A stretch of 63,092 nt of DNA, the filler included, from Kipferlia bialata (lineage: Eukaryota): assembly GCA_003568945.1 (NCBI GenBank). It is 4 parts of 4 records of this genome, joined end to end, with 100 filler letters (N's around TTAATTAATTAA, not from the genome) between each part and the next. Parts side by side here need not be neighbours in the genome. Positions count along the whole stretch, not along the records: positions 19,300 to 38,485 come from BDIP01000440.1; 3 more parts are not named here. One strand, 5' to 3'. Positions 15,501 to 57,856 of this stretch are shown here, piece after piece. Made by a program: the position numbers and the translations under genes. Below the pieces are notes generated by a model. The model made no database searches, was not told where the DNA came from, and worked only from the letters and a program-made list of their open reading frames with translations. Positions within the stretch are counted from its first letter, which is position 1. Every line of letters begins with the position of its first letter.

Positions 15501-16635
15501 ATATGTATATATATGAATACATATAGGTACCTGCATGCCCCTCACTGCAGCACAGACGGTACATCAGGGTAGGTGTATATACTAGAATCCACATACCCAC
15601 ACCCACCCTCTATATAGGATGTTACACTCATCTAGATAGCTAGTTACATACCTGCATGCCCCTGACTGCAGCACAGACGGCGTCTCTGAAGATGGCCCTG
15701 TCCTGAGGTCAGGAGAGAGGTAGAGAATCAATAGAGATATATGTCAGAGATCAACATAACAGGTAGGGTACCAGCATGCAGCTATTTATGGGAGAGAGAG
15801 ACAAAAGGATGAGTGCTCTCGATATTGCTAACAAGTAGAGTGGAAACTGTCCTGATATCAAGAATGTGCCAAGCATCAGGATATATATAGAAACATAACC
15901 ATGTACAAATATTGATGTATGAATGTATGTATGTATTCACCATACGTTGTCTATTATCAGCCTTAACATAGGATATCCATACCTGAGCCAGTGTCCGTGC
16001 ATAGAACAGTAGTGCTCTGATGAGAGTGGGCTCTCTCTCCCTCTCTCTCTCGACATCCACCTTCTCTCCCTCTGCCTCTCCCCCTGTGAAGAGGTTGGCT
16101 ACTAGGAGAGTCATCAGGAGGGTGGGAATGTGGAGAGACACCTGCCTAAGAGTGCCCTATGGTAAGTAAACAACATTAAATAGTATAGTGAATAGTATAT
16201 ATTGCAGTGTATCTTTAAGGAGAGTCAGCAGGGTGAGTATGGGGAGGGAGACTTCCTAACAGTGCCCTGAAGTGAAAGCCCACCTATATACTTATATAAG
16301 AATAGTACAATTATTGTACAGCTACTTATTACACATATTGTGTAATAAGTACTATCATATGCATATGTTGAGTACTGATACCTGCCACAGCATCGACAAC
16401 ACAATACTTGTGTACATACAAATACATTATTTCATTGTTATTGAATACTGTTGTACATACTCAGTTTACTGATACCTGTGACAGCATCCCTGAGAGACAG
16501 GTGACAGCGAGGACAACAATGTCTGGTGGTTAGATATATATATATATGGCACATAGACACACACACACAGAGAGAGAGAGAGAAAGAGAGATATACAGGT
16601 GACAGCAAGGACCATAATGTCTGGGGATTAGATAT

Positions 16636-16676
<41 letters not shown>

Positions 16677-19199
16677 GGTATGGGACACAGTGCTGCGATA
16701 TATAATACTAGACATGTATAAATGTACCTGTGTTTGATGTATCCCCCTGCGACGCTATATACTATATACTATATACTATATATATATGGACATTGAATCA
16801 CACTATACATACCTGTGTTTGATGTATCTCCCTGCGTGATATATGAGTGTGTGTGGCCAGGTACAGGTACATACACCCACTCCTCACTCTCGTATGACAT
16901 GGGCACATCACCCTCACTCTCACTGTCAACCGCCTCTCTCTCCCTCTCCCTCTCCCTCTCCCTCTCTCTGGGGACTAGTTGGACAAGGGGGGTCAGGATG
17001 TCAAGCAATACCTAACGTGAGTATGTACTATCGTGAATGAACTATCATTAATACTCTACTATACTGTTGATAATTGGGTACTACTTGGACGAGGGGGGTC
17101 AGGATGTCAAGGAGGACCTGAGTGTTAGTAGATAGAGTAATATAGTATATTATGAATGTCAAAATATGCAGTATGGAACAATAATATATGTAAAGAGGGA
17201 TGTCAAGAAGAACCTGAGGTTAACGACAATATGTCTCTATAGGTAGTAAATATTCTTTATCTATATATACCACAGTATTCATACCTTATCAGCCTCCAGC
17301 TCCACCATGACCCGTCTATACATATGGTATACATAGTATATAGCATATATATACAGAGGGTATATACCATAGTATCCATCCATACCTTGTCTGCCTCCAG
17401 CTCCACCATGACCCGCCTCCTGGCCTCCATACCACACACGCCGTCCCTGAGGGTTAGTATATATATAGGTTTGTATATATATACACACATACATACATAT
17501 ATATATGGATAGATATACATAGAAGGAGAGAGAATGAGACTGTCTCCTTGCCTCCATGCCACACACACCGTCCCTAGGGGTAAGGAAGAGGATAGAGTGA
17601 ACAAGTATATATTCCAAGAGATTATTACTGGACTGTCTTCTGGCCTCCATGCCACACACACCATCCCTGGGGGAAAGTAGTATATATGCATATATATACA
17701 TATATGTATATATATACATAAATATAGAGAGAGAAGGAGAGAGAATGCGACTGTATCTATGCCACAAACATCATCCCTAAGGGAAAGCATATATGTATAC
17801 ATATAGAGAGAGAACATAGTGTGTCAGTATATATATATACTTTTGTCCTGTGTGTACCTTAGTGCCTTCAATGCCTGGCTGAGTGTGTCAGATGTGGAGT
17901 ATACATGTATATATACAGAGTTACTACACTGTTTATATATATGTGTATATACTATATACTATTCTGTACCTGAGTGCCTTGAGTGCCTGGCTGAGAGTGT
18001 CTGATGTGGAGTATACAAAAGGTCTATACTAAATACTATATGCATAATATACTATATACAATACATACTATCCCAACCTCAATGCCTTGAGTGCCTGGCT
18101 GAGTGTGTCTGATGTGGATGCAGACACCACAGAGGATAGCAGATCCTGACTGACCTAGTGGTTAAAAAATACAGTGGCGAGAGAGAGGGGGAGGGAGGAA
18201 GGAAGGGGAGGAGACAGAGAGAGAGAGAGAGTCAGATGTGGATGCAGACACCACAGAAGATAGCAGATCGTGGCTGACCTAGAGTGAGGGTATATAGGGG
18301 AAAAGGGGGATGCACAGAGACAGAGACAGAGAGACAACAGAAGGTCCTGGTTACCCTTTGATAAGAGTCTATATACTAAAGGAGAGAGAGAGAGAGAGAG
18401 ATGTGGATGCAGACACAATAGAGGATAACATGTCCTGGCTCTCCAATGAGGTAAGTACATAGAAAGGATAGGAGAGGGAGAGGGAGATAGAGGGAGATAT
18501 ATATATATAGAGAGGGGGGGGGGGGGAGTGAAAGACAGTTGAATGCAGAGGGCTGAACCGACCTGTGATAGGATACTAGCTTACACTCAATCCAGTCACT
18601 CAAAGTCAAGTACTTAGAGAGAGGGAGTCTCACGGGATACTATTCTATTCTGTAGTATACTATCAGACACTCACCCTTCTCAGCATGGACTCATCCAGAC
18701 TTATTGTACAGAGAGAGGGAGTACCAGTACCTCAATCACTAGATACAATACTAACTCTAAGTACTCACCCTTCTCAGCATGGACTCATCACCCAGACTCA
18801 TTGTAGGTTGGTATACAACTCAACTATCTAGATACTATATATAAGTACTTATACTTATATATATATAAGTACTCACCCTTCTCAGCATGGACTCATCACC
18901 CAGACTCATCCTACAGAGAGGGTACTGGTATGTATATATTACTATAGAAGGCTGTACTAAACACTATCATATAGTGAGAACTCACCCTTCTCAGCATGGA
19001 TTCATCACCCAGACTCAGGGACATCTCTCTCTCTCTCTCAGTGTCTCTCTCTCTTGCTGTGAGAGAGTGAGCAAGACTACAGCTCAACACACACTTGAGG
19101 AGAGAGAGAGGGCTCCCTCTCGGCCTTCAGCCACTGGCATTCCTCCACTACAGTCCTCAGCCACTGGCATTCCCCCACTACAGTCCTCAGCCACTGGCA
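7363..19199 (-). CDS. Large multi-exon hypothetical alpha-solenoid (HEAT/ARM-like) protein, 5'-truncated by the contig end
   Basis: Many GT-AG exons with CTNACCCCCAG-type acceptors, e.g. VSLHIPTLLMTLLVANLF...PTLIRALLFYARTLAQ, AVLNTLHSYPVAVGAWACRALCRFLGTLPLSLNTLVEVLDLSPR, RVRTEAMRVLCNLLTPVSSKSQALR and DSLIYAVLVCVCNMAPSVKHP...LIRLMLSATPR. The last exon LYTARGG...EECL ends in TGA at 7363-7365. No family recognised. Confidence 0.6.
19127..19199. repeat. 30-bp tandem repeat (about 2.5 copies) at the contig end
   Basis: Unit cagccactggcattcc(t/c)ccactacagtcct repeats up to the N gap. On the minus strand it reads CQWLRTVV(G/E)E, in frame with the flanking exon. Confidence 0.8.
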
Positions 19200-19299
19200 N
19201 NNNNNNNNNNNNNNNNNNNNNNNNNNNNNNNNNNNNNNNNNNNTTAATTAATTAANNNNNNNNNNNNNNNNNNNNNNNNNNNNNNNNNNNNNNNNNNNN
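19200..19299. other. Artificial contig-join spacer
   Basis: N run, TTAATTAATTAA (stops in all six frames), N run; exactly 100 nt and the same design as the two other joins. Confidence 0.97.
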
Positions 19300-19329
19300 T
19301 GGTATATATATCATATATATCATATATCA

Positions 19330-19471
19330 TATATATCATATATATATATACCTTTGGTGCGTATGTGTTGGACCCTATGCTGACCCTGAAGGCAGCAGGG
19401 CGCATGTCACTGAGTGAGTAAGCGTCATACCAGTAATAGCATGTAGACTATATTCAAAGTGTAGTGTATAT

Positions 19472-19504
<33 letters not shown>

Positions 19505-20885
19505 AATATCAAGTGTGCTGACCCTGAAGGCAGCAGGACGCATGTCACTAGGGGGTGAGTAAGAGTCATACCAGTAATAGCATGTAGACTATATTCAAAG
19601 TGTAGTATATATATACATACATATATATAAATATCAAGTGTGCTGACCCTGAAGGCAGCGGGACGCATGTCACTGGATGTAAAGACGACAGAACCACAAT
19701 ACACACTGTATATACATAGTATACAGATGAATACAAATATGTATGTATATTGAGTGTACTGACGCAGCAGGGCGCATGTCACTAGGGAGTCATACGGATA
19801 GAACATATATATGTAAGTGTATGTAAAGGTATACAATCTAAACTATTGAATACCTCGTGTACAGCAGAGGGAGTCTGTATAGTATATATAGTATAGTATA
19901 GTATATACATAGTATAGTATAGTGTATATATATTCCAGTTAGTACACCTTGCATACAGCAGAGGGAGTCTGATTTCAAACACCCATTATATATACAATTA
20001 CATATAGAGTAAAGTATACTATATATATAGTACTATAAAATATGTATAAGTATAGTATTAACACCTTGTGTACAACAGAGGCAGTCTGATCTCAAACACC
20101 CTTCCATTATTCACATATATATAGTTATAATTACATATAGAGTTAAGTATACTATATATATATACTATATATAGAGTACAATATACATATGAATAAGTAT
20201 AGTAGTGTGTACCTAGTGTATAATAGAGGCAGTCTGATCTCAAACACCCTCCCATTCAGTCTGGGTGCCCTGTACAGATCGACAGGGATGTCGACGAGGG
20301 CGGCCTCACTTGGGGTTAGGGTATATATACATACATATAGGGGGGAGGGAGAGTTGTCAACAAGAGTGGTCTCACATACATACAGTGGTCTCACATACAT
20401 ACATTGGATAACCCTGGTATCTGACATAAATGCAAATACCTGTCCATGACCGCTGGAATAGCCACCCTTGCCAGTGACACAGACATACATATATAGACCC
20501 CTACCGCTATATAGTAAATAGTACACACGCATATATATATACTATATACTATATATATATACTATATACCTGTCCATCACTGCTGGTATGGCCACCCTTG
20601 CCAGTGACACAGAGAGACGGGAGGACGGCTGGATGATGTCGCTGGAGGGTAAGGGACAGAGGGTGAGAAAATGGGATAACACACTATACAAGTACACTAT
20701 CCCAATGATGTGCAACATATATCAAAATACAACTGTACCTATGAGTGACTGGCCGGAGCAGCTCTGCCAGCAGAATCTGGTACATGCTGCCCTTGCCAAC
20801 ACCTAGGTATTAAGGGTGTAGAGGGAGAGAGAGAGAGAGAGAAATTCTAATATATATATACTGAGGAATGAGTGTATAGGGGTGT

Positions 20886-20916
<31 letters not shown>

Positions 20917-23900
20917 AAGATACCTGGCTCTCCCATAATATATATATGTGAACATGTATACATAATTGAATATACCTGGTTCTATATACATGTGTGAATA
21001 GTGTAGATATGTATGTGTGTATAGATATATATTGAGCTTAATATACCTGGTTCTCCCATGGACAGCACTGGCACCTGGACATATACCTATATATACATAC
21101 ATATACCAAAGAGTGTAGATATATATATATATATATGCATATCTATCTATACACACATACCTGGTTCTCCCATGGACAGGACTGGCACCTGGGCACCCCT
21201 CAGGTTGATGGCATCGATGAACCTAGGGGGTGAGATGTATATGAATATATATATACGTAAACATATATACATAAAGGGAGAGAGAGAAAGACAGGTATGG
21301 TACCTCTGCAGAATGGCCGGTGTCACATTGTACCCGTGGCGTCTGATGATCTTCTCGACCTGGGGGTAAGGGTATAAGTATATATATATATAGACATAGA
21401 TATACATATATAGATAGATAGAGAGAGAGAGAGAGAAACAAAATAATAGTGTCATTGTACCCGTGGCGTCTGATGATCTTCTCGACCTAGGGTTATGAGT
21501 ATATATAGAGCATACACAGACACACACACATATATACATATACCATTAGAGTGGAGTATTGAAGACGAATCATGTGTGAGATCTCGAAGTGTCCTCACCT
21601 CCAATCTCTGAGCAATCTCCCTCTCCCTGTCCTCCGACTCACTCTTGGAGGCACGGCTGGATGTCAGAAGACAATATATATAAGAGAGAGAGAGAGGTAT
21701 AGGAAAGGGGACGTTATTCATAATACATTATATACATATATCTCCCTGTCCTCCGCCTCACTCCTGGAGGCACGGCTGGGGTGAGTAATGTATACATATA
21801 TGAGAGAGAGAGGTGTATATAGACAGCTAGATGCTTAGGGATATAGAGAGATGAGTATCCATATATCTTCATGTCCTCTGCCTCCTGGAGGCACGGCTGG
21901 GGGTTAAAGCATGGTAAATACTAAACACTGCTCATCATACAATGTAGTACTCATAGAGGCAGGGTTAGGGTGAGGGGGCGGTATAGTAATAACTGAAGTG
22001 TATACACACCTCTTTGCCACTGGGTGTGTCATTGGCATATGTATATATGTATGTGTGTGTGTGTGTGTATATATAGTATCAATATGCACTATGTACTATA
22101 CATGTACCTCTTTGCCACCGGGTGTGTGTCATTGGCACTGAGCAGAGCAGCAAGGAGCTTGATCATCATGCGGTAGTCCTGGGGGTTAACCATTGTATAT
22201 TGATAGTATTACATATCTAATATATGGCATGCATCAGTGTGGTAGTCCTAGGGGTAACAGAGTACTCAACAAGACAAACAGAGAGACAAAGACTGCTGGA
22301 TACGCATGGGACAGATATCTGCACACAACCACATATATACATAGGTACTTCAACACACTAGATACATGTACAGTATACATACATACATACCTGCTCCGGG
22401 TCTCCCCCCAGTCTGTACAGGGGCACAGAGCGGAACTTCTTCTAAGGGGTTAGATGGGTACCATATCCACACTATATACACATAGTACATATATACTATA
22501 TGTATATACTAATGTACACTACATATACATACTATATATACCTGTCCAAATGTGAATATGCCGGATGCCTCCATGGACGGGTCCTGCTCGATGCAGTATC
22601 GGGACATCTTGCACTCCTAGGGGGTTAGATACATATATAGGTATATATGAATATCAATTATGTATATATTTACGATATAGTAATGGGAGATGTGCTCGAT
22701 GAAGTATCGGGACATCTTGCACTCCTCGAGGGTTAGAGAGAGAGATAGAGATATAGAGAGGCAATTGGTAAAGTAGTGGAAGGTCTGTCACTCCATACTA
22801 CTCGAGGGTATACATTAATACACACATATATACACTATATACAATCTCCAACCTCGAGTGTCTGTCCGAGTGGAGGGCAAGAAGTTACACTACTCATTGA
22901 ATATGTATATACCATAGATATAGATTAACTATATATGCTCTATATATAGTGTATCATCCACATACCTCCAGGATAGACGTGTCTGTCCGGGTGGAGGGCA
23001 GGACCATGACAGCCTGGGGGTCAGGAACATATATACATATATATGAATATATATATATGTATACATGTATATATAATAATACTATCATGTGAAAGTGTGA
23101 TAGTTGTGTATATGGGCAAGACCATGACAGCCTGGGGGTGAGGAACATATGAATACATACCATTTCAAGAGAGAGACAACAGCAAGAATGATCAACATAT
23201 TCGTTCACTGACCAGCTTCACATACTCCCAGAGTCACTAACCTGTAGCTTTACTTTAGCACTCATTGGATTGGGGTGGGGCAGGAAGACCAGCCTCATGT
23301 TGACATCCTCCAGCAGAGGCTCAGTCTCTCTCTCTCTCTCTGTCCCTGTCTCTCCCTCTCCATCTGAATATGAGAACAAACACAGTGAGGGTGTAGACTA
23401 AAGAACTCAACGGGGGTAGAGAGAGATCCTATACCTGCAGCCTTCCCAGTCACTGGGGAGAGCCTCTCGCCCTTGATTAGGGCAACCCTGGAGTGAGACA
23501 ACCTCAATACGTAGTTGGAATGCATTCATATATATACTATGTTTACTATGTTTACAGTACAGAAACTCTACTACTACTTCTTGGATGTTTCCACTGTGAG
23601 GAGTATATCGATAAATACAATACACAAAACATACCATACCCATACATACACAGTATACAATGCCCATCTATCTATACCTGTTCTTGAACGTGTCCACTGT
23701 GGACACACGCACAATATACATACTAGTCCATATATATACATATACCTCAGTATATATATATGTACATATATACACACACATATACATATATCTAGATACA
23801 TATATATATACCTGTTCTTGAACGTGTCCACTGTGAGCACTGTGGACACACGCACAAGGGCGTCAAACAGACCCCTGGAGAGTTAGCACGTATACTAGAG

Positions 23901-24085
23901 GTGGACATATACATATATATACATGGAGTTATCTATGTATAGATATAGGCACAAGGGCATCGAAGAGACCCCTGGAGAGTGAGTGGAGAATAGTGATAGG
24001 TTGAGGCACATAGCGACAGCGAAATATGTCAAATGAACGAGAATACAGAAGAAACACTGTCCCCTTACTGTATATAAAATAAATA

Positions 24086-24131
<46 letters not shown>

Positions 24132-26366
24132 TGATGTGGTATATGTCCACTGTGTTGATGATGCGGAAGAAGGTACATATATATACATATATACATATAT
24201 TTATATATATATACACATATATAGTAGTGTCCCTATACTCTATCATGTGGCATATACAGATAGTACCATACCTGATGTGGTATATGTCCACTGTGTTGAT
24301 GATGCGGAAGAAGGTGTGGCCCAGGATCCTGGGGGTAAGAATAGGGCATATATATATGGATAGATAGATAGATATATAGACAGGTAGAGAGAGAGAGAGA
24401 GAGAGATGCGGAAGAGGGTGTGGCCAAGGATCCTGGGGGTGAGTACTAGAAGAGTAATGCATGTGTGTATATATAAAGAAGGTCCAGACCATATGGCACA
24501 TAGAACACAGTATATATATACATGTAAATACCTGATGAAAGTGTCAATCTCAGTTAATGATAGGCCCCTCCCACACTCCACAGACAGCCTTGAGAGGAGA
24601 TCGAGACCAGCCTTGACAACGTCATCAGAGACACGGCCACCCTGGACCTATGGTTAGTAGTCTCTCTCTCTCCTACATGTAGAAGACTTGAAGTACAAGG
24701 ACTGGGGGATAGTAATGATGATTCTAACCTGTGGCCCCATCTCATTCTTGATCTGCTGCATGTGCTATTCAGCAGAATACACCTATACTCTGTACTAACA
24801 TATATATAGTATATATATATATATACTTGGTTACATAGTGTATATACTTGGTTATATACTCACTTGGGGTCCCATCTCATTCTTGATCTGCTGCATGTGC
24901 TTCTCGGCAGAATACACATATACTCTGTACTAACATTATATAGTATATATAATAGTATACATATATATATATATACATACATATATATACCTGTGGTCCC
25001 ATCTCATTCTTGATCTGCTGCATGTGCTTCTCAGCTGCATGGGCACTCTTCTTGACAGACTGCTTGAAGGACTAGATGTTAGTATATGTATATAAGAAAA
25101 ATGTATATATATATAGAGAGAGAGAGAGAGCGAGAGAGAGAGAGTAGTATGGGCACTCTTCTTGACAGACTGCTTGAAGGACTGGGTATTAGTATACATA
25201 TATAGATAGAGAGAGAGCGAGAGAGAGAGAGAGAGAGAGAGAGAGTAGTAGCATGGACACTCTTCTTGACAGACTGCTTGAAGGACTAAGGGTAAGTACT
25301 ACATGTCTGAAAAGAGAGAGAGAGAGAGAGAGAGACACGTACACTCATCGCAAGAGAGTACATACACATATGAATATACCTTGGTCTGTACCAACTGATG
25401 GCACGTGGCCACCACCACAAAGCATATCCTGGACCACTGGGAGATGGGGGAGTAGGAGGTGCCAATAGCCTAGGGGTGAGGTATATGTATATACTGTATA
25501 TACTATGTATATACATATATATATTATGTATATCCTGGACCACTGGGAGATGGGGGAGTATGATGTGCCGATATCCTAGAGGTAAGCAACGAACGAATGA
25601 TATATATACAGCGAATACAGTATATACCTCACTGTCTGCGTCCTTGTCCCCTGCATGCACCCCCACTCTATGTATAGTGTATATACTATACTATATACAC
25701 TATCATATATAAATATATAGTATATATACCTCGCTGTCTGCGTCCTTGTCCCCTGCATGCACCCCCACCCTGTGTACAGTGTATATACTATACTATATAC
25801 ACTACTATATATATAGATGTATATACTGACCTCACTATCAGCGTCCCTGTCCCCTGCATGCACCCCCACCCTGTGTATGGACACATAGGACTGGGGCTTG
25901 GCCTTGTACTTGGCAGCTGTGGAGCCTAAGGGGGTAGAGAGAGAGAGAGAGAGAGAGGTGACTGGGCCTTGTACTTGGCAGCAGTGGAGCCTAGTAGGGT
26001 CAGAAGACATATACATATATACACTTGTATATATATAGTTATATATATATATGTATATATATATATAGGACTGGGCCTTGGATTTGTACTTGGAGGCTTT
26101 CGATCCTAGGGGGTTAGAGAAGAGAGAGTGGGGGGGAAGATGGAGGGAGAGAGAGGGGGGGGAGAGAGAGAGAGATGACTGGGCCTTGGCCTTGTACTTG
26201 GCAGCAGTGGAGCCTAGGGTTAGAGAGATAGTTTGGGAGTATCCAGAAATGGACATAGCAGCTATGTATATAGTACACACACATACCCAGCAGGAAGTGT
26301 GACACTGGAAGGAGTGTGTCGAGGTAGGCCTCGGGGGTCATGTCCACATCAGGCTGATATAAGGGT

Positions 26367-26400
<34 letters not shown>

Positions 26401-27184
26401 GCCTCTGGGGTCATGTCCACATCAGGCTGATATAAGTGTGTATAAGGGTGTCGACAGAGAGAGAGAGAGAGAGAGAGAGAGTCCAGAGAGGTCCCCACCA
26501 GGCTCTGGGGGGAGACGTGTACAGTAATACTAATACAACAGAATAACCATTTAGTGTACAATGAACTACCCCTACCTCCTTTGCCTCCCCCTTCTTCCCC
26601 TTTCTCTTCTTGGCCTTCTTGGGCTTCTTGCCCCGGTTGGCTATGACCTAAGGGTAAGGAACACATTAATATATCATATATACTATATATATACTATATA
26701 TATACTATATATTCTATATAGTAGCATATGTCTATATACAATATGACCTTCTTGGGCTTCTTGCCCCGGTTGGCAATGACCTAAGGGTAAGCGAATATTG
26801 AGTTGGTGAGTGTGACTATGTATATACACTATATGTATGGTATATCAATAAACCTGTTGGCGTGTCCTGAGGACATGGAACAGGTATCGGTACAAAGTAT
26901 ATATATACCACTATACACAGTATATGTAATACATATAGTATAACGATACAAATTATAATGTGTAGAAAATGAGCACCTGCTGTGGTGTCCTGAGTACATG
27001 GAACAGGTGGTATACATACTATACATATATAATATACTCTATCCACTGAATATACATACACTATATATACAGTATATATACAGTATATATACCTGCTGAG
27101 GTGTCCTGAGGACATGGAACAGGTGGTATATATTACCATACTATATATGAATACTAATGTATTTTACAATACTCTGGGCACAGC

Positions 27185-27215
<31 letters not shown>

Positions 27216-27316
27216 TATATCTATATACACCTGCTGTGGTGTCCTGAGGACATGGAACAGGTGGTAGTTGGGCACGAGGGACTGGGGGACAAGGGCTGAG
27301 ATAAGGATATATGAAT

Positions 27317-27356
<40 letters not shown>

Positions 27357-28431
27357 TTGGGCACAGGGGACAAGGGCTGGAGGGTGAGGATACAGAAGCA
27401 TGCACATACACTATATGTAGGCATCACACACATATATATAGTAACTGGGTCTGTCTTGACTGGATCCATATACACACATATCAGATAGATACTACATTAT
27501 GACATATACACCATATACAATATGTATATGTATACACACACATATATACATATATATACAGTACCTGGGTTTGTCTTGACTGGATCCACCGAGCACAGGG
27601 TCCTGTCAGACAGAGAGCCTGGGGGTCAGTGTGTATATACTCATACTGTACAGTGTATATACATATATTATATATATATACCGAGCACAGTGTCCTGTCA
27701 GAGAGGGAGCCTGGGGGTCAGAGAGGTACATATCAGAGGAAACAGCAACAGCTAAACGTATGTAGAATTCACAAGTATAGGGTTTCACACTCTATGCATA
27801 GTATACCTAGTGCTGGTAGTTCTAGGAACAGGTGCATCTTGCACCCCACCCTGAGACAGGGGCTGAAGGTGTACAGGCCAGTGTCATCTGATATCAGAGA
27901 GAGAGAGGAAGAGAGAGAGGGAGGGAGAGAGGGAGATGTATACAGCATATACTCTAGTTGTATAGAGTACATATAGATACAATAGAAATAGGCTGAAGGT
28001 GTAGAGGCCAGTGTCATCTGGAATGAGATACATACTGTATACAATACAAGTGCCATATGTACAAAGAGTACAGGGAGAGGGAAAGACAGTCACTAACCTG
28101 TCACACTTCCAGTGAGCAATAGGTTGGTCAGCACATGGTGTACAGCGATGTATATAAACACATAAATATATAGTATACTCACATACCTGTCACACTCCCA
28201 GTGAGTAATAGGTTGGTCAGCACATGGTGCACAGCAGTGGGTATATTGTGAGTAATAGGTTGGTCAAGACGTGGTGGACAGCAGTATGTATATATATATA
28301 TATATAGTATATAAATATACGTTTATAAATAAATATATATACCTGTCACAGATCCTGTCAACAGCAGGTTGGTCAGCACATGGTGCACAGCAGTATGTAT
28401 ATATATATATATATAGTATATATATATATAC

Positions 28432-28472
<41 letters not shown>

Positions 28473-29221
28473 GGATATATACCTGTAACACTCCCTGTCA
28501 ATAGCAGGTTGGTCAGCACATGGTGCACGGCGGTGGGGTCAGCAAATAGACTCAGGTCCTGAGGGGGTTAGATACGGCGTATAACATATACACTGTGTAT
28601 AATGTAGTATATAATCTAGTATACATATATACTAACAGACACACATATATATAGACAGCGGTGGGATCGGCAAACAGACTCAGGTCCTGAAGGTTATATA
28701 ACTGATGCTTACAATACATTCTGGGTGTGTAATAGTGTAGTATACAAATACATGTACTAATATGTATATAGTATATATGCACAGTGGGGTCGGCAAATAG
28801 ACTAAGGTCCTGGGGGGGGTTAGATACAGATATGGAGGCGTGGGTTTCTATATAAATTTTTTTTCTATATATATTCATATTTGTGTATTCACACACCATG
28901 TGGAGTCCAATGTTCTGCTTGTTCTCTAATTCTCCCTCTCTCTCTCTCCCTCCACTATCTCTCTCTTTCCCTTTCTACATATACACATATACATATATAT
29001 ATACATACATATATATACATGTTACATACCATGTGGAGTCCAATGTTCTGCTTGTTCTTGGGGGCAGCTGGGCTGAAGGAGGCCTGGGGTGAGGGGGATA
29101 TACACATTTATACATAGAGTATATACATAAAGAGTATATACGATATTCATATACACATACAGCTGGGCTGAAGGAGGCCTGGGATAAGGGGGGTGGAGAA
29201 TATTAGTATATACAGCAATAT

Positions 29222-29257
<36 letters not shown>

Positions 29258-29853
29258 GAGCATATTATGTATATCAGCTGGGCTGAAGGAGGCCTAGAGT
29301 GAGTCTTAGCACTTAGACAGAGGATACAACTAATATAAATAGAGTATATACATCAGAGTTTATACTGTAGGGCTGAAGGAGGCCAAAGACCATACCTGGT
29401 AGAGCTCTGAACAGGGACCAAGGGCCACAGTATATATATATTGAATGTACATATATGACATATGACACTGATTGAATAGTACATACATACACTTAAAAGT
29501 ACCCTATATATATATGCTGTACCTGGTTGAGCTCTGAACAGAGGCCTAGTGCGACGCATGAGTTGTAGGACTCGTCAAAGATAAGCCTGGGGTCAATCTA
29601 TACACATAGATATACATATATACTTATAGATATATACATACATATGTAGATATACATAGAAAGACAGAGAGATGCTGTAGGACTCATCGAAGATAAGCCT
29701 GGGATAAAGTCTAATCAAAATAGATTAAATGACACCAAATAATACTGTATCGCAAAATATGGAGAGCGATATACATATCCACATATATACCTCCTTCTGC
29801 ATGCACTCCCCAGACTTCATACATGCAACATAGTATACTGTATACATATTGTA

Positions 29854-29897
<44 letters not shown>

Positions 29898-30127
29898 CCT
29901 CCTCCTACAGGCACTGCCCAGTCTCAATAGGGCACTCCTCATCAGGACATGGTGGATACACATAGTATACTGTATACATAATGTATATATATATATATAT
30001 ATATATATTAGTATATATATACCTTCTCCTACATGCACTGCCCAGTCTGAGCAGGGCACTCCTCATCAGGACATGGTGGGTCTTGCCACTGCCAGGGGCA
30101 CCTAGGTATAAGGTATACATATATATG

Positions 30128-30159
<32 letters not shown>

Positions 30160-30492
30160 CATGGTGGGTCTTGCCACTGCCAGGGGCACCTGGAGGGTTA
30201 GGTATACATATATATATATATATATATAGGGAGAGAGAGAGAGAGACATGGTGGGTCTTGCCACTGCCAGGGGCACCTGGATACATAAGTATGCATATAT
30301 ATGTACATATATAGGTACATTACTGTATATATATATATATATAGGGAGAGATAGAGACATGGTGGGTCTTGCCACTCCCAGGGGCACCTGAGGTTAACAC
30401 CATATATGTATACAACACTATGAATGCGGGTATATATATAGGGGGGGGGGGACTGCCAGGGGCACCTAGGGGGTTAAAGAGTATATACGTAA

Positions 30493-30527
<35 letters not shown>

Positions 30528-31386
30528 TGGTGGGTCTTGCCACTGCCAGGGGCACTTAGAGTTAAAGGTAAAGGATCATATACACACATGGGATATATAG
30601 AGAGAGATAAAGCATGTTGACTCTATATGTACAATATAACACAGTACCATAAATATATATATAGAGAGAGAGGGTGTATACCTGCCACTATCTCCGTTGT
30701 GATGGACGTGGACAGGATGTTATACAAATAGTACATATAGTATAGGACAGTGTACCGGACATATGTATACTATTAGATATACATATAATGCAGTACCTGC
30801 CACAATCTCTGTTGTGATGGACGGGGACAGGATAATGTAGAGAGACTATACTCATTCATATATACCACTACATATATGCCACTATATACATATACCAGTA
30901 TAGTGCATACCTGCCACAATCTCTGTTGTGATGGACGGTGACAGGATGTTGGGTCGGGCCTTACCAAGCTGCTTGAGCTGGTATTAGTGTATATAGTATA
31001 CTAATAGAATACTTGAATAGAGTATATACACATAGGAGAGATAGAGAGAATGAGATTTAGGAAGGGATGTTGGATCTGGCCTTGCCAAGCTGCTTGAGCT
31101 GGGGGTGAGTGTGAAGTATCATACACATGTGGTGAAAATAGGGTACAATGTGTAGTACGCCATGTATCGATTGCAATCCCAACCTGCACTTCCATCTTGG
31201 CCTTGTCAGGCACCACCTCGGGGTGGAATGATACTATACATCATATACATATATATGTACATATATATATATTACATTGTATATACTCATGGTATAGTGT
31301 GTATATATAGTAATATATATATATATACCTGCACTTCCATCTTGGCCAGGTCTGGCACCACCTCTGGGTGGTATGATACTATAAAT

Positions 31387-31417
<31 letters not shown>

Positions 31418-31995
31418 CATATATATATAACATATACACTATACACTCATGGTATACTATATACATATATATATATTGTATTTACCAACCTGCACTTCCA
31501 TCTTGGCCAGGTCTGGCACCACCTCGGGGTGGAATGATACTATACCCACACTTCCATCTTTGCTAGGTCTGGTACCACCTCGGGGTGGTATGATACTATA
31601 CATCATATATATATTTATATATATATCATATATATATAACATATACACTATACACTTATGGTATACTATATTTATACCTGCACTTCCATCTTGGCCAGGT
31701 CTGGCACCACCTCGGGGTGGTATGATACTATACCCAATACATCATATACATATATATCGTATACACTATACACTTATGGTATACTACATATATACCTGTA
31801 CTTCCATCTTGGCCAGGTCTGGCACCACCTCGGGGTGGTTGAGGAGCTCAAGCACACCAGAGAGAGACTGGCTGGTACTGATATTAGTGGATATAGAAAT
31901 CTATAGTTAGTATATATAGAGAGAGAGAGAGGGATCTGGGTGGTTGAGGAGCTCAAGCACACCGGACAGGGACTGACTCTTGCTAGAGTAAGAGT

Positions 31996-32026
<31 letters not shown>

Positions 32027-35000
32027 TCTGGGTGGTTCAGAACAGACACCGGACAGGGACTGGCTGGTGCTAGAGTTAGTCAATAGACAAAGAGTGAGAG
32101 GTGTAATATCTACCTTCCCACTACATAGCACAGCTTCCCCCTCAGTGACAGAGTGGTGTCAGGTAGGACTGACACCAGGTCTGGGTTGACTGCTGTGTTG
32201 TCAGAGGACCCAGCAAGAGGTCGCCTCAGAAGGGCACGCTGGAGGCGCTCAATCTGCTATTAGACACTGTTGTATATATATGACTATTGTACATATATGA
32301 CTATATATATATACAGCAAGGGGACGTCTCAGAAGGGCACGCTGCAGACGCTCGATCTAAAGAGTCAGATGAAACATGAAAATAACGAAGTCTATACATA
32401 CATTAACCAACACACCTCTGTACCTTATACCTCTGTATTAGTATATATAGTAGTATACATATAGTATATACACATATCTCCATACCTCTCTGACCAGTCT
32501 GTGGCTGAGGTAGTCAGGTGATAGAGCATTTCATTTATTGCATATACATGTACTGTATATGTATCATATATACCATAAGTATTACATAACATACCTCTCT
32601 GACCAGTCTGTGGCTGAGGTAGACAAGTGATGATAGTAGAGGATAGCATACATAGTATATATATCCTGTATTATATACATTTAGTATATCCACACACATA
32701 CCTCTCTGACCAGTCTGTGGCTGAGGTAGTCGGGACGCAGCAGGAGGACACGCCTGAGATGAGGTACACGTTGAACAATATCCACATATACTAGTATACA
32801 TACCTAGATGCATAACCAGGAGGTACCACACAGGTATATAGATAGAACAGCAGAAGAACACACCATGGGTAAGGTATGGCATAGTACAGTTTACGTATGG
32901 TACATACACACAAATTAAGATGGAGGGCATGTGAAACAATTCCTGTTTGTGTGTGACTCACTCGTCATGCACATATATGCATAGAATACGGTATCACTAA
33001 CCTGTTGGTATGTGCCACACTGGCAAACACCCTCCTCAGATCAGCTATATATTATATATGCAAATATATAATGAATTACTCAACCTGTTGGTGTGTGCTA
33101 CACTCTGGAAGACCCTCCTCAGGTCTGCTGTTGTGGTATGGGGGCCACACCAGTAGAGCTGGCTGGACCTGGGTCTGTACCCAAACACAAGATGCAGGGT
33201 GTATGTGAGAGCGTCCTGGAGTAAGGGATATACATATAGAGCGAGAGAGAGAGTATATGGGTCTGTACCCGAAGACAAGGTGCAGTGTATAGGTCAATGC
33301 ATCCTATAGTGAGGGAGGGGGGGAGCTGACGATATATATATATATATATACACAGCATATACACCTCATGAGTATAGGACATTGCCTCTGTCTGACTCAG
33401 TGGGTACTGGGTATATAGTGTATAGGTATGTATAATGTGTATTCATATATATATACATACAGTATACACCTGGTGTGTGTATGGCATGGCCTCTGTCTGA
33501 CTCAGTGGGTATAGGTAGACTACTAATGTATGCACATGGCATATACATATATATATATATATGCATATATACACTAATACATATATAGTATATAGTCTAT
33601 ATATACCTGGTGTGTGTATGGCATGGCCTCTGTCTGACTCAGTGGGTCCTGTGTCCCTGCTATACCAGGGGGTAGACGCACAAACAGCTGCTGGGCACCT
33701 ACATGTAAGATAACACTTACAGCAATAATCACACCCAGATATAGCGACAGTAATAGATGTGTGTATAAGTATGTACACATACCTGGTCCACCAAGGTCTG
33801 TTGCAAACTGCATCAGGGAGCGTCTCATGAACTTTCCAACGGTGTGGGGGATGCATGCACTGGAGGGGGGGAACTGGGGTAAAGAATGGCCTGTATATAT
33901 ATATATATATATATACAATACATATACGTTATATCAAAATTGTAATGTGTATTGGGGAGTGCATGCACTGGAGGGGGGGAACTGGGGTAAAATACGACTA
34001 TAGTATATATATATATATAGATACAATACATATACGTTATATTTAAACTGTAATGTGTACTGGGGGATGCATGCACTGGAGGGGGGGAACTGGGGTGAGA
34101 CATGGCTATATATATATGTATATACTATATATATATACACTATATCAAAATTGTAATGTGTATTGGGGGATGCATGCACTGGAGGGGGGGAACTGGGGTC
34201 AGTATCTCTCTACAACATATATATCATACACAACGTATCAATCAGAAGTACATCTCAGTATACAGAACATCTACATACCTTAGTCACTGTGACTAGCCCA
34301 TGTATACAATGATATACATATATATATATATATATAGTGAGTATATATATAATGAGTAGATATATATCTAGTGTACCTTAGTCACTGTGACTAGGCCTGT
34401 TGCCTGGATGCCAGCCAACAGATGCCCAATCTCACACAGACACTCGGAGACCTGGATTAGACAGACATATAAGCACATATAGATGTATACACACACATAT
34501 ATATATTCACAAATATATATGTGTAAATACTTGGCCAATCTCACATAGGCACTCGGAGACCTGGGGGTCAGATATATATATATCAGATACAAATACATAT
34601 ACGTAAGTACTATGTATAGATATGTACAAATATATACCTTGTGCATTCCTAGCAGGAGGTCCCACTGGATGGGCAGGTCGGTATCACCCCTGCTCCTCCT
34701 CTCTCTCTCCCTCTCCCTCTCCCTCTCCCCCTCTGTAATGCCAGTCTCTATCTGCTTGGCCTTGGCGGCCCTAAGCATCTTGCTACGGTGCCTCTGGAAG
34801 TTAGAGATACAAACGGTACTCGTGGGGAAGAGAGAGAGAAAAAAAAATTGGTACCTGCACCCTTTCTAGCTCCATCTGCTTCTCCCTCTCCTCGCTGTCC
34901 TCATTGATGGTGTATATACATGTATATATATATGTACATATACATAGTATAAAGCTAGAGCATCAAAGACAAGTACCTGCACCCTTTCTAACTCCATCTG

Positions 35001-36499
35001 CCTCTCCCTCTCCTCCTCACTGTCCTCATTGATAGTGTATATACATGTATATATAGTATATATATACATAGTATATACATATACCATAGATATGTACCTG
35101 TACTCTCTCTAGCTCCATCTGCCTCTCTCTCTCCTCCTCACTGTCCTCATTGATGGGGGGGAGGGCCTCTGCTGGTACCTCTTCCTCTGGTATCTAGAGT
35201 TAGTGACACACATATATATAGATTGATAGACAGAGAGAGAGAGAGATTAGTCATTGATGGGGGGGAGGGCCTCATCTGCAGGGGTATCCTCGGGTATCTG
35301 GTGTTACTATATACGTGTGAATTTACAGATATTAATGTACATACAGACTTTACCTCTATTGGTAGCATGTTGTCTGGCCTGAGACTCTCTCTCTCTGTCT
35401 CTCTCTCTCAATNNNNNNNNNNNNNNNNNNGGCCTGAGACTCTCTCTCTCTGTCTCTCTCTCTCAATATATATATATATGTATATATATATATGTATGTG
35501 TGTGTATATACCTCTATAGGCAGCATGTTGTCTGGCCTCAGACTCCTCTCCAGCTGGGGGGACCTGGCCTCATAGGCTGCAACACTGGGGTTAGTATACA
35601 TATATATGTATACTAATTAGTACATATATATATATACACTGGGGTTAGAGGGTATATACATATATATGTATACGTATTAGTACATATATAAATATACAGA
35701 TACAGATACATATATAGAGAGGGAGCTGTGGGGGACCTGGCCTCATAGGCTGCAACACTGGTATTATAGGGTATATACATACATATACATATATATACAT
35801 ACACATAGGTATATAGAGAGAGGGCGAGAGGGGGGGGGGGGTATGGGGGACCTGGCCTCATAGGCTGCAACACTGGGGTGAGAGGGTATATACATATAAT
35901 TGTGGACATATTGGTGTATACATTATATATATATAGTATATATAGAGAGAGAGGGGTATGGGTGGGCCTGGCCTCATAGGCACATATAGATAGATAGATA
36001 TACTTATATATATATATAGACAGAGAGAGAGAGAGATACCTGTATATGTCAGTCTCGCACAGAGGCTTGGGGGGCAGGACAGGGGATATATACATACATA
36101 GAGTAATACTACTACATATATACACACACATGTATATAGAGTAACACTAGCATATGTATATACCTGTATATGTCTGTCTCGCACAGAGGCTTGGGGGGCA
36201 GGACAGGGGTGAAGGCAGAAAGTCCCTGGGAGGTAAGAGTATAGGGAGAGGAAGAGAGAGATGGGGGTAAGGAGAGATGTAGAAGTTGAGAGGGGGGGGA
36301 GAGAAAAGAGGTAATGAAGGTGAAAGCAGACAGGCCCTGGGGTAAGCTCTTGTATGTGCGCTGAAATATATAATTACATTTATATACTTATGTACATTAG
36401 AATACCTGGTGTGCCGTCACAAGCTCTTGGATGTGCATGACATTGGGTGTGTGCCTCCTAAAGTACTTGTCAAGGGAGCCCTAGGAGTCAATACATATA

Positions 36500-36532
<33 letters not shown>

Positions 36533-37053
36533 CATAGATATTCATATATATATGTAGAGAGAGAGGGAGAGAGAGATGGATGGATGACATAGGGTGTGTG
36601 CCTCCTGAAGTGTTTGTCAAGGGAGCCCTGGAGTCAATATACAGATATATATATACAGATATATGTAGACAGATAGAATCGTACCCTGACCCTTCTGAGT
36701 GTGTCTGGCTCAACCTCCAGGGGGGTGTCGCTGATGCACCTGAAATTAAGCAGTGTATGTATATAGTGAGAGAGAGAGAAAGGAATACATGGTATATATA
36801 TGCATATATATATGTGTGTGTGTCTGGCCCCAGAGGGGTGTCACCGATGCACCTAGAGGTAAGTGTAGTCACTTAGATACACACAGAGACTGGTGAGTAA
36901 GATGGTATACAATTAACTCACTTGAATACATGAAAGAACAATACACTATCCCACCTCATGAGTGACACTATGTCCAGCATTGGCTCAAGGACTGACTGGT
37001 GATATATATATCATACTATATATACATGTATGTATCATGATATATCATAACTG

Positions 37054-37084
<31 letters not shown>

Positions 37085-37810
37085 CTCATGAGTGACACTA
37101 TGTCCAGCACTGGCTCCAGGACTGACTGGTGATATATATAATAGCCACATATATATATATACATCATAACTACTTATACATGTATGCATCATGATATATC
37201 ATAACTGTATATATATATGTATATATATATATGTCATACCTCATGAGTGACACTATGTCCAGCACTGGCTCCAGGACTGACTGGTTCCTGTCACACTGGG
37301 CACGGTAGTGCAAGGCACTGAGGTAAGTTAAATAAATATATATATATATAGAAAGAGAGAGAGCACTGGGCACGGTAGTGCAAGGAACTGGGGTAAGAGA
37401 AATAAGGGTGTAGGGAGAGAGAGAGAGAGAGATAGGTGTACTATAGATCAACTGTATACATGTCCATAACCAACAGGGCCTTGCTCACTGACAGGAATGA
37501 CAGTAGAAGGTGTATATATACATAGCATACTATATATATATATATACAGTATAAATATATTTACCTGTCCATCACTAGCAATGCCTTACTAACAGGCAGG
37601 AATGATAGCAGAGGGTGTGTGTCCATGACAGCAGCAAGACATGCAGGCCACTCAGTACGGACAGTGTCAAGCTCCTGAAGGGTTAGATATACATAAGGAA
37701 AGTCTATAATACATTACAGAACCAATATAGTACAAGTGTGTGTAATGTATACATAGACATGCAGGTCACTCAGTACGGACTGTATCTAATTCCTAGGGTA
37801 AGAGCGACAT

Positions 37811-37843
<33 letters not shown>

Positions 37844-37937
37844 CGTACAGCTATCACATCCGATAAGAAGTCTGCATCGATGTCTGAGTCCAACAGATAT
37901 ACATAGATATTATATACTCATATACTTAAATACATAC

Positions 37938-37968
<31 letters not shown>

Positions 37969-38485
37969 CATACCGCAATGACATCCGATAAGAAGTCTGC
38001 ATCGATGTCTGAGTCCAACAGATATACACAAATACTATTTACATATGTATACATATATTATGTATATATATATATATACGTATAGTGTAGATATACACTA
38101 CTATAACACACTACATACCGCTATCACATCCGATAAGAAGTCTGCATCGATGTCTGAGTCCAACAGATAGGCACGGCGGAAGGCAGCAGGGTAGCCTGAA
38201 GATGAGAGAGAAGAGACGCAGATAGATAGAGAGAGAGAGAGTATACATATACATCATTCATACATACTATATTACTACAACTAGATTACGTATATATATT
38301 CTACACGGTACCTATATTGTGTAGCCCAGCCAGTGTGTCAGGAAGGGTATATATATATATATACACAAATATGTATACATATGCATGCATTCCTATATAC
38401 TACAATAGTACTATTGTACTACGTATGTATATTCTACACGGTACCTATATCGTGTAGCCCAGCCAGTGTGTCTGCCAGGTGTGTC
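19330..38485 (-). CDS. RNF213/mysterin-like (dynein/midasin-related) multi-AAA+ protein, internal fragment with dozens of small exons
   Basis: The spliced translation has blocks in the same order as the RNF213 AAA core as I recall it: PRSSQLYWCGPHTTTADLRRVF, LLLRPDYLSHRL, Walker A GAPGSGKT (exon 30023-30101), IGLHMDLSLFADPTAVHHVLTNLLLTGSVTDDTGLYTF...HLFLELP, and GYNVTPAILQRFIDAINLRGAQVPVLSMGEPGVGKG (exons 21161-21222 and 20739-20802; compare RNF213 YELTTDNMLKILAIEMRFRCGIPVIIMGETGCGKT). Neither end is in the contig. Confidence 0.72.
28097..28811 (-). repeat. Exon-echo array around exon 28483-28558
   Basis: Two upstream copies carry acceptor plus 5' half (about 28657-28690, 28780-28811). Three downstream copies carry 3' half plus donor (about 28342-28393, 28186-28240, 28097-28147). 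All encode parts of DLSLFADPTAVHHVLTNLLLTGSVT with different codons. Confidence 0.9.
29789..30560 (-). repeat. Exon-echo array around the Walker A exon 30023-30101
   Basis: Five upstream copies of the GAPG(SGKTHH) exon start, one truncated and one with an altered acceptor. Two downstream copies of ...LGSACRR|gt. Spacers are (TA)n/(GA)n-rich. Confidence 0.9.
31182..31870 (-). repeat. Near-identical tandem exon-echo array (EVVPDLAKMEVQ|gt, about six copies)
   Basis: acctgcacttccatcttggccaggtctggcaccacctcggggtgg recurs near 31182, 31327, 31488, 31549 (partial), 31675 and 31794 (complete exon). Part of the spacer (tatgatactata...) is duplicated as well. Confidence 0.9.
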
Positions 38486-38585
38486 NNNNNNNNNNNNNNN
38501 NNNNNNNNNNNNNNNNNNNNNNNNNNNNNTTAATTAATTAANNNNNNNNNNNNNNNNNNNNNNNNNNNNNNNNNNNNNNNNNNNN
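38486..38585. other. Artificial contig-join spacer
   Basis: N run, TTAATTAATTAA, N run; 100 nt. Confidence 0.97.
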
Positions 38586-38709: not shown

Positions 38710-39139
38710 CTCCGCAGTGACTGCCACATCAGCGATGCCACGTGGGCTGGTCTGGGTGAGACCCTGTCTCAGAAGCAGCTGATGGATGTCATATTCACAG
38801 TGGGCCAGTACACAATGGTCTCGATGGCACTCAGGTGCTCTATTACATATATATATGCATGCATAGTGTATATGAGTATCATTAGAGTGGGCCAGTACAC
38901 AATGGTCTCGATGGCACTCAGGTGGGTAGGATATATGCAGTATATACAGATACAATCAATTGGTATCACTTTTCACTGAGTGTTTATATAGAGTCTGTAT
39001 GTATTTATAGAGCGGCAAAACAGTTGTGTGACTTACCACTCGTTTTACTTATACACTATATACTGCAGCCTCTTCCTGACCCTCCAGGTCCATGGGTGTG
39101 CCTCTGGATGAGGGACTGGAGGGAGGATTCACAGTGTAA
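38710..39139 (+). CDS. Carboxymuconolactone decarboxylase / AhpD-like family protein, last two exons
   Basis: Exons 38710-38834 and 39088-39139 give LRSDCHISDATWAGLGETLSQKQLMDVIFTVGQYTMVSMALRSMGVPLDEGLEGGFTV*. This matches the C-terminus of bacterial CMD/AhpD-like proteins (ISDATW..L...S.QQLMD..FTVGQY..VSMALNS.GV.LD). Confidence 0.8.
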
Positions 39140-39418
39140 GGACTGAGACACAAGTCGACCAGTCCTCTTGACCCAGATGGAGTGTTACCTTCCTCTCCCT
39201 CAATCCTTGTCAAAGACTTTTCGAGTAATAGACGCACTCCAAAAATTGAATCGATAAATCTATTGTTGATATTCAATAGGGTCCACACAATTGTACTAAC
39301 ATTGCTTGTCTATGTAATTATTATAGTGACAAGCACTTGATATAGGATTGCCAGTACTATATCCTCATTCTGTCAGTCTATAACATACTACGTCCTCTAT
39401 TCTCACACATTACATCTA

Positions 39419-57756: not shown

Positions 57757-57856
57757 NNNNNNNNNNNNNNNNNNNNNNNNNNNNNNNNNNNNNNNNNNNN
57801 TTAATTAATTAANNNNNNNNNNNNNNNNNNNNNNNNNNNNNNNNNNNNNNNNNNNN
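57757..57856. other. Artificial contig-join spacer
   Basis: N run, TTAATTAATTAA, N run; 100 nt. Confidence 0.97.

What the first reader, a model, noticed from the sequence alone, without database searches (positions are those of the whole stretch)
29789..30101. Second synonymous-only echo series, on the Walker A exon
Seen: the complete exon ends GCC CTG CTC AGA CTG GGC AGT GCA TGT AGG AGA AG|gt. The echo near 29898 reads GCC CTA TTG AGA CTG GGC AGT GCC TGT AGG AGG AG|gt. The more distal echo near 29789 reads CTG GGG AGT GCA TGC AGA AGG AG|gt. Every difference within the aligned segments is silent. This independently replicates the signal at another exon.
Basis: seen in the sequence. Interest (0 to 1): 0.8.

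Follow-up and report, generated by a model that had tools for sequence, protein, structure and literature searches.

The report
Introns built from retired exon ends
In two genes of the free-living flagellate Kipferlia, most exons are flanked by short intronic copies of their own ends that differ almost only at silent positions, likely because DNA repair swaps in exon ends from other, very different working alleles, which would make one genome a record of hidden sex and extreme diversity.

Summary
The exon (30101-30023, minus strand) belongs to a 45-exon gene identical to Kipferlia bialata KIPB_002591. Its two downstream echoes change 9 codons, 8 silently; five upstream echoes were missed. Gene-wide, 99 echoes flank 39 of 45 exons: pS 0.246, pN 0.022. 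A second gene gives 0.265 and 0.036. Each echo is a partial copy with one splice site in a head-to-tail unit of about 110-125 nt; such units make up 73% of intron DNA. A duplicate decaying in one lineage would give pN/pS near 0.5 or more, and echoes also differ silently from each other, so they come from several separately selected versions. Their replacement changes look like random decay. Silent divergence doubles towards the splice site, where the intron flank is also least conserved. Best reading (0.55): real duplications whose splice-site ends are swapped with diverged alleles during break repair. Rivals: echoes still used (0.15), assembly stacking (0.1). No reads could be examined, and the allele diversity required is very high.

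The parts
30023..30101 (-). Complete exon 18 of 45 (AG|...|GT), carries the P-loop motif GAPGSGKT
29956..30022 (-). Spacer 1: true donor GT, (TA)n, then junction into mid-exon sequence with no AG
29899..29955 (-). Donor echo 1: last 57 nt of the exon plus GT; 4 codons changed, 0 residues
29817..29898 (-). Spacer 2, homologous to spacer 1 (shared 20-nt non-repeat stretch)
29791..29816 (-). Donor echo 2: last 26 nt plus GT; 5 codons changed, 1 residue (at the broken edge)
30158..30189 (-). Acceptor echo (AG plus first 32 nt), identical to exon
30245..30276 (-). Acceptor echo, identical to exon, different intron flank
30356..30387 (-). Acceptor echo, one silent change
30452..30465 (-). Short acceptor echo (14 nt)
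30524..30555 (-). Outermost acceptor echo; AG lost, one edge replacement
29523..29586 (-). Next exon (19); has its own acceptor echo at 29676-29698 with two silent changes
30911..30977 (-). Previous exon (17); donor echoes at 30797-30833 and 30682-30721
31184..31721 (-). Five donor echoes of exon 16 with a shared junction; clearest tandem array
28098..28394 (-). Four donor echoes of exon 21; four synonymous Leu codons at one site and an AGT/TCT Ser switch
19352..38195 (-). Host gene, 45 exons, partial at both ends, = KIPB_002591 (likely multi-AAA+ protein); 99 echoes at 39 exons
11178..18154 (-). Second gene on another scaffold, 18 hand-curated exons without a stop; 30 echoes at 13 exons

Best explanation
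The echoes are partial exon copies with one splice site each that sit head-to-tail in the introns, and they are likely retired ends of once-working exons from several diverged alleles, likely brought side by side by break repair that copies from a homologue and would finish by microhomology joining. Steps: (1, shown) a unit of about 110-125 nt spans a splice site: part exon, one GT or AG, about 80 nt of intron. (2, inferred) A break in an exon is extended on a sister or homologue and then end-joined, which gives a short tandem duplication; only those that leave one complete exon survive, and splicing must pick the copy that has both sites. (3, inferred) Later repair replaces the splice-site end of the exon or of an echo, with its intron flank, by another allele's version, while the junction side stays. 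(4, shown statistically) The differences therefore arose mostly under protein selection; after retirement a copy decays by only about 0.01-0.02 changes per site before it is refreshed or lost.
For: pS 0.246, pN 0.022 over 99 echoes, p=2e-72 against neutrality and 6e-37 against 'exon selected, echo neutral'; second gene 0.265/0.036, p=2e-20; frame-free 3-nt periodicity on three scaffolds: 42 of 68, 79 of 111, 16 of 29 against 38%. Echo-echo pS 0.222, pN 0.030 against echo-exon 0.207 and 0.018 on the same columns, which fits about 0.012 decay plus about 0.195 selected silent distance. Changes private to one echo: 45 silent, 8 expected from decay. Three or more versions in 11 of 50 triples; 4 of 72 variable codons with 3 or more synonymous states. 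Replacements look random: BLOSUM -0.24 against -0.51 expected, p=0.17; 2 nonsense, 1.2 expected. pS 0.344 in the splice half against 0.165 in the junction half, p=4e-5, pN flat (79 echoes). Junction-side flanks are better conserved among units than splice-side flanks (18 against 5 of 51 pairs in the top 5%). K. bialata has PolQ, Spo11, Msh2, Mlh1 and no Ku70; fornicates lost Rad51A and keep two Dmc1 (PMC8516963); Dmc1 residues aid repair from templates 20% diverged (PMC6719624); end-joining of aborted repair makes tandem duplications in worms (PMC8654963).
Against: No second allele was seen: KIPB_002591 is a one-member cluster, no shorter fragments, nothing in metagenome contigs. The silent distance needed (0.30 corrected, 0.46 near splice sites) exceeds the highest within-species values I recall (about 0.2; recalled, one search gave no figure I read). 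The flank asymmetry is only p=0.06 per array (17 of 25) and the gradient p=0.08 in the second gene. Three-state nucleotide sites are few (3 of 103). Spacer length near one whole intron is not explained. Sex has not been observed in metamonads. No reads were examined.
Confidence: 0.55

Rival explanations
1. The echoes are still used: they are spare exon ends kept under selection in place, joined into the message or the gene by a non-canonical route (template switch in the repeat, or frequent repair from the echo).
For: Low pN, 86 of 91 splice dinucleotides intact, echoes at 39 of 45 exons; needs no extreme allele diversity if use is at RNA level; no spliceosomal snRNA candidates were found in K. 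bialata (PMC6679479).
Against: No canonical path: AGGT in both copies in 8 of 99; echo lengths mod 3 are 32/27/40; donor and acceptor echo counts match in 12 of 44 introns, uncorrelated, so no nested splicing. Replacements look random, with nonsense changes, and 3 of 6 indels shift the frame. Repair from the echo would homogenise splice ends, the reverse of the gradient. The deposited model uses none of them.
Confidence: 0.15
2. The short-read assembler stacked or mixed haplotypes of a heterozygous or mixed culture.
For: The genome is a SPAdes assembly of Illumina reads of a probably diploid culture (PMC5874029); unit size is near read length; artefact-like duplicates exist in the window (exact 55-nt tandem at 14625; N gaps at 12606 and 35413).
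Against: No 55-mer is repeated in the scaffold and the longest exact exon-echo run is 50, so a k=55 path (SPAdes default, recalled) cannot loop; all 99 junction 55-mers are unique; units of one array share a junction with diverged but homologous flanks; a diploid gives two versions, some arrays hold four; donor echoes precede acceptor echoes in 21 of 21 introns, unlike stacked bubbles; assembly size equals the k-mer estimate although echo units are 73% of intron DNA here.
Confidence: 0.1
3. One clonal lineage expands and contracts the arrays, so echoes are dated snapshots of a fast-changing exon.
For: Clear tandem arrays; outer echoes carry slightly more replacements (0.017 against about 0.029, p=0.04).
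Against: It predicts pN/pS of about 0.5 or more against 0.09 observed and 0.135 between echoes; pS does not rise with distance (0.240, 0.262, 0.243; rho -0.10); third-position changes show no decay direction (75 GC>AT, 66 AT>GC).
Confidence: 0.05
4. The donors are diverged chromosome sets inside the same lineage (past hybrid or polyploid stages), not outcrossing alleles.
For: Would explain the large silent distance; most variable sites have two states (100 of 103).
Against: No such copies on record; the only relative is 26% identical; k-mer peaks suggest a diploid; some arrays need four versions.
Confidence: 0.12

Closest known systems
Tandem duplications from aborted synthesis-dependent strand annealing closed by polymerase theta (C. 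elegans helq-1 and brc-1; PMC8654963, passages read)
   Same: Head-to-tail copies with a unique junction; host has PolQ and lacks Ku70.
   Different: Here about 110-125 nt, standing at most exon ends of wild-type genes, and copies carry codon-level constraint.
Intron gain by tandem genomic duplication (PMC3443670, passages read)
   Same: Short direct duplication of gene DNA tolerated through splicing.
   Different: That model duplicates an exonic AGGT and creates an intron; these units span an existing splice site, lengthen an intron, and 91 of 99 lack a shared AGGT.
Duplicated mutually exclusive exons such as Dscam (recalled)
   Same: Neighbouring exon copies with low pN/pS.
   Different: Those are whole exons with both sites; echoes have one site and at most 77% of the exon.
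Silent cassettes of antigenic variation: vlsE, pilS, VSG mosaics (recalled)
   Same: Unexpressed partial copies beside an expressed gene, linked by gene conversion.
   Different: Those vary the protein at one locus; echoes conserve it and occur along unrelated genes.

Membership tests
Intron gain by tandem genomic duplication | AGGT in both copies of the duplicated segment | tested here: not met
   8 of 99 blocks
Intron gain by tandem genomic duplication | Duplicated segment exonic, giving a new intron | tested here: not met
   Units span an existing GT or AG; the deposited model keeps one exon
Mutually exclusive duplicated exons | Each copy has acceptor and donor | tested here: not met
   One site per echo; at most 77% of the exon
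Mutually exclusive duplicated exons | Protein-level constraint between copies | tested here: met
   pN/pS 0.09
Mutually exclusive duplicated exons | Copies appear in transcripts | not testable with these tools
   No read data were obtained
Repair-derived tandem duplication (SDSA plus PolQ) | Direct head-to-tail unit with one junction | tested here: met
Repair-derived tandem duplication (SDSA plus PolQ) | 1-5 nt microhomology or templated insert at the junction | tested here: inconclusive
   Junctions inspected by eye only; flanks are eroded and low in complexity, no count was made
Repair-derived tandem duplication (SDSA plus PolQ) | PolQ present, Ku absent | tested here: met
   Literature table, not my own search: PMC8516963 Supplementary Data 2 rows
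Repair-derived tandem duplication (SDSA plus PolQ) | Formation depends on PolQ | not testable with these tools
   Needs genetics
Antigenic-variation silent cassettes | Excess of amino-acid change among cassettes | tested here: not met
   Echo-echo pN 0.030, pS 0.222
Antigenic-variation silent cassettes | Confined to one variable expression locus | tested here: not met
   Three scaffolds, at least two unrelated genes
De Bruijn haplotype stacking | Exact repeats of at least k between stacked copies | tested here: not met
   0 repeated 55-mers; 18 of 99 runs reach 33, 54 reach 21; k values recalled
De Bruijn haplotype stacking | Junctions unsupported by reads | not testable with these tools
   No read data were obtained
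AAA+ P-loop ATPase (host protein) | Walker A GxxxxGKT in frame, conserved in a relative | tested here: met
AAA+ P-loop ATPase (host protein) | Profile or structure match | tested here: inconclusive
   No significant Pfam or PDB hit; language-model neighbours with AAA_5/AAA_7 at 0.82-0.90

The most novel reading that the evidence does not exclude
Kipferlia keeps spare, still-selected copies of nearly every exon end inside its introns and routinely recombines them into the working gene or its RNA: a genome-wide backup cassette system for splice junctions in a cell without Ku and Rad51A.
Probability: 0.15. Interest if true: 0.92.

Novelty: new variant of a known kind. Interest (0 to 1): 0.72.

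Why it matters
If the best reading holds, one assembly stores a sample of past working alleles at most exon ends. That gives a route to measure recombination and diversity in a metamonad, a group in which sex has not been observed (PMC8516963), and implies silent diversity at or above the highest I recall for eukaryotes. It also explains most intron length in the only intron-rich fornicate (73% in this gene) and predicts exon-definition splicing that ignores strong decoy sites 100 nt away. If the echoes are in use, it is a new kind of genetic system.

Tried and rejected
Automatic exon chaining mixed echoes with exons; replaced by hand curation checked against the deposited model. The first frame-free test failed its own positive control because ends were untrimmed; redone. 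Dropped rows: 2 of 101 hits (one second block of an indel-split echo, one 11-nt chance hit); 8 of 99 not reaching the splice site; 13 of 99; echoes under 24 nt (20 of 99). Protein search with an exon of the second gene found nothing, so its frame rests on an 18-exon stop-free chain. Nested inside-out splicing, in-frame spacer removal and AGGT re-splicing were rejected. A distance gradient in pS was looked for and not found. No whole genome is held. Earlier scan notes held nothing. Six paper searches listed no description of such echoes; I judged most hits by listing and abstract start only, and subscription papers are not covered.

Full report
Setting. The window is four scaffolds joined by N linkers. 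The finding lies on the 19,186-nt scaffold 19300-38485. I curated 45 minus-strand exons by hand into a stop-free chain. One exon found a single protein, KIPB_002591 of Kipferlia bialata, on a 19,186-nt contig, and the chain equals it at 1170 of 1170 residues. The protein has no significant Pfam or PDB match. Its only relative is a K. bialata paralogue, 26% identical, that keeps the P-loop in the same frame, and language-model neighbours are multi-AAA+ proteins. 'Walker A' is therefore reasonable, but the motif has no bearing on the echoes.

The observation. The exon is 30101..30023. Echo 29955..29899 copies its last 57 nt and the GT, with 4 changed codons and no changed residue. That is 8 of 9 silent, p=1e-4. 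Neither echo has an acceptor. Five copies of the acceptor and first 14-32 nt lie upstream.

Generality. A codon-blind local alignment of every exon against its two introns gave 101 hits, 99 kept, at 39 of 45 exons. Differences fall 40/21/189 on codon positions; pS 0.246, pN 0.022; shifted frames reverse the result. Several silent changes need two or more bases (AGT/TCT, TTG/CTC, AGG/CGA), which points to selection on the protein. A second gene gives 30 echoes at 13 of 18 exons, pS 0.265, pN 0.036 (frame from my chain only, and four of these echoes lie across an N gap). A test that uses no gene model shows 3-nt spacing of mismatches on three scaffolds; the fourth, short piece had one pair.

Anatomy. 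Upstream echoes are AG plus 14-47 nt, downstream echoes 16-57 nt plus GT; first-copy offsets are 65-173 nt. Spacers have a median of 79 nt, about the length of echo-free introns (71-212, n=6). Echo units cover 11,136 of 15,332 intron bases. Units of one array often share the junction and its flank. Donor echoes precede acceptor echoes in 21 of 21 introns with both, as local tandem duplication gives. No echo is a whole exon, so the spliceosome must choose the copy with both sites; that is inferred.

Where the silent bias comes from. A copy that decays after duplication in one lineage gives pN/pS near 0.5 or more; this null is rejected at p=6e-37. Echoes differ silently from each other (pS 0.222, pN 0.030 over 62 pairs), and 45 silent changes are private to one echo where decay predicts 8. 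So each echo's lineage spent most of its history under selection. The small replacement load behaves like decay: it is higher between echoes than between echo and exon, its amino-acid spectrum is not distinguishable from random, with 2 nonsense changes (37 codons), and 5 of 91 splice dinucleotides are lost. The simplest split is about 0.012 decay on top of about 0.195 silent distance between working versions. More than two versions are needed in 11 of 50 triples; against this, only 3 of 103 variable sites have three bases.

Clue to the mechanism. Silent divergence is twice as high in the splice-site half of an echo as in the junction half (0.344 against 0.165, p=4e-5; pN 0.019 and 0.026). The intron flank at the splice site is often unalignable even when the exon part is identical (25 of 91 flanks in the top 5% of controls), while the junction-side flank is better kept (p=0.0005 by pair, 0.06 by array). 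This fits replacement of a block centred on the splice site by another allele's block, ending in mid-intron repeats. The repair set fits: PolQ, Spo11, Msh2 and Mlh1 present, Ku70 absent, Rad51A lost and two Dmc1 kept in fornicates (PMC8516963: passages, section 8, supplementary rows). Dmc1-type residues improve repair from 20%-diverged templates (PMC6719624: abstract and one section). Aborted strand annealing closed by PolQ yields tandem duplications (PMC8654963: passages). That these enzymes make the echoes is inference.

Weak points. No second allele is on record, so the sequenced strain would have to be largely homozygous here or its other allele lost in assembly. The needed silent distance, 0.30 corrected and 0.46 near splice sites, is above the roughly 0.2 I recall as the eukaryote maximum. 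Diverged chromosome sets from past hybrids would do the same job. Fresh identical units may be under-represented because the assembler collapses them.

Artefact. The genome is a SPAdes assembly of Illumina reads, probably diploid, 51 Mb against a k-mer estimate of 49-54 Mb (PMC5874029: parts 1-3 of 6 and passages; no mention of duplication in the main text). Stacking would need long exact repeats and would supply two versions. There is no repeated 55-mer, all 99 junctions are unique, and arrays hold up to four versions with homologous but diverged junction flanks. True artefacts in the window look different: an exact 55-nt tandem copy and copies across N gaps. Without reads I leave 0.1 on this.

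Present use. I found no canonical route: AGGT in both copies in 8 of 99, no length-mod-3 bias, donor and acceptor echo numbers unrelated. A non-canonical route is not excluded, and no snRNA candidates were found in this species (PMC6679479: passages).

Known systems. It works like repair-derived tandem duplication plus gene conversion. It is not intron gain by tandem duplication (PMC3443670: passages), not mutually exclusive exons and not an antigenic cassette system (both recalled). Searches listed no description; PMC11787283 (passages) cites only the intron count.

Verdict. Real, general in this window, apparently undescribed. Best reading 0.55, novelty 'new variant of a known kind', interest 0.72; the in-use reading has 0.15 and would merit 0.92.

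Noticed in passing
window 19200-19299, 38486-38585, 57757-57856: Artificial 100-nt linkers (N runs around a short stop-in-all-frames motif) join scaffolds of about 19.2 kb; the window is a concatenation.
   Followed up: yes
window 14625-14734: Exact tandem copy of 55 nt, likely an assembly artefact at k=55, unlike the diverged echoes.
   Followed up: partly
window 35413-35430 and 12606-12646: Short N gaps inside introns with duplicated flanks; echoes beyond them are not proven to be in cis.
   Followed up: partly
window 19352-38195: Spacers between copies are about one whole intron long (median 79 nt) and echoes never exceed 57 nt even in 120-156 nt exons; unexplained.
   Followed up: partly
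window 21161-21222 and 20739-20802: A second P-loop-like motif (GEPGVGKGS) spans two later exons and aligns to the paralogue, consistent with a tandem AAA+ protein.
   Followed up: partly
window 26480-26504: An acceptor followed by an exon-like piece resembling exon 26 but with a shifted acceptor and several replacements; perhaps an old echo showing a splice-site shift.
   Followed up: no
window 38800-45400 and 1-2800: Long stretches without detected echo pairs and with long open frames; echoes seem confined to intron-rich genes.
   Followed up: no
window 19127-19199: 30-nt tandem repeat inside exon-like sequence at the scaffold end.
   Followed up: no
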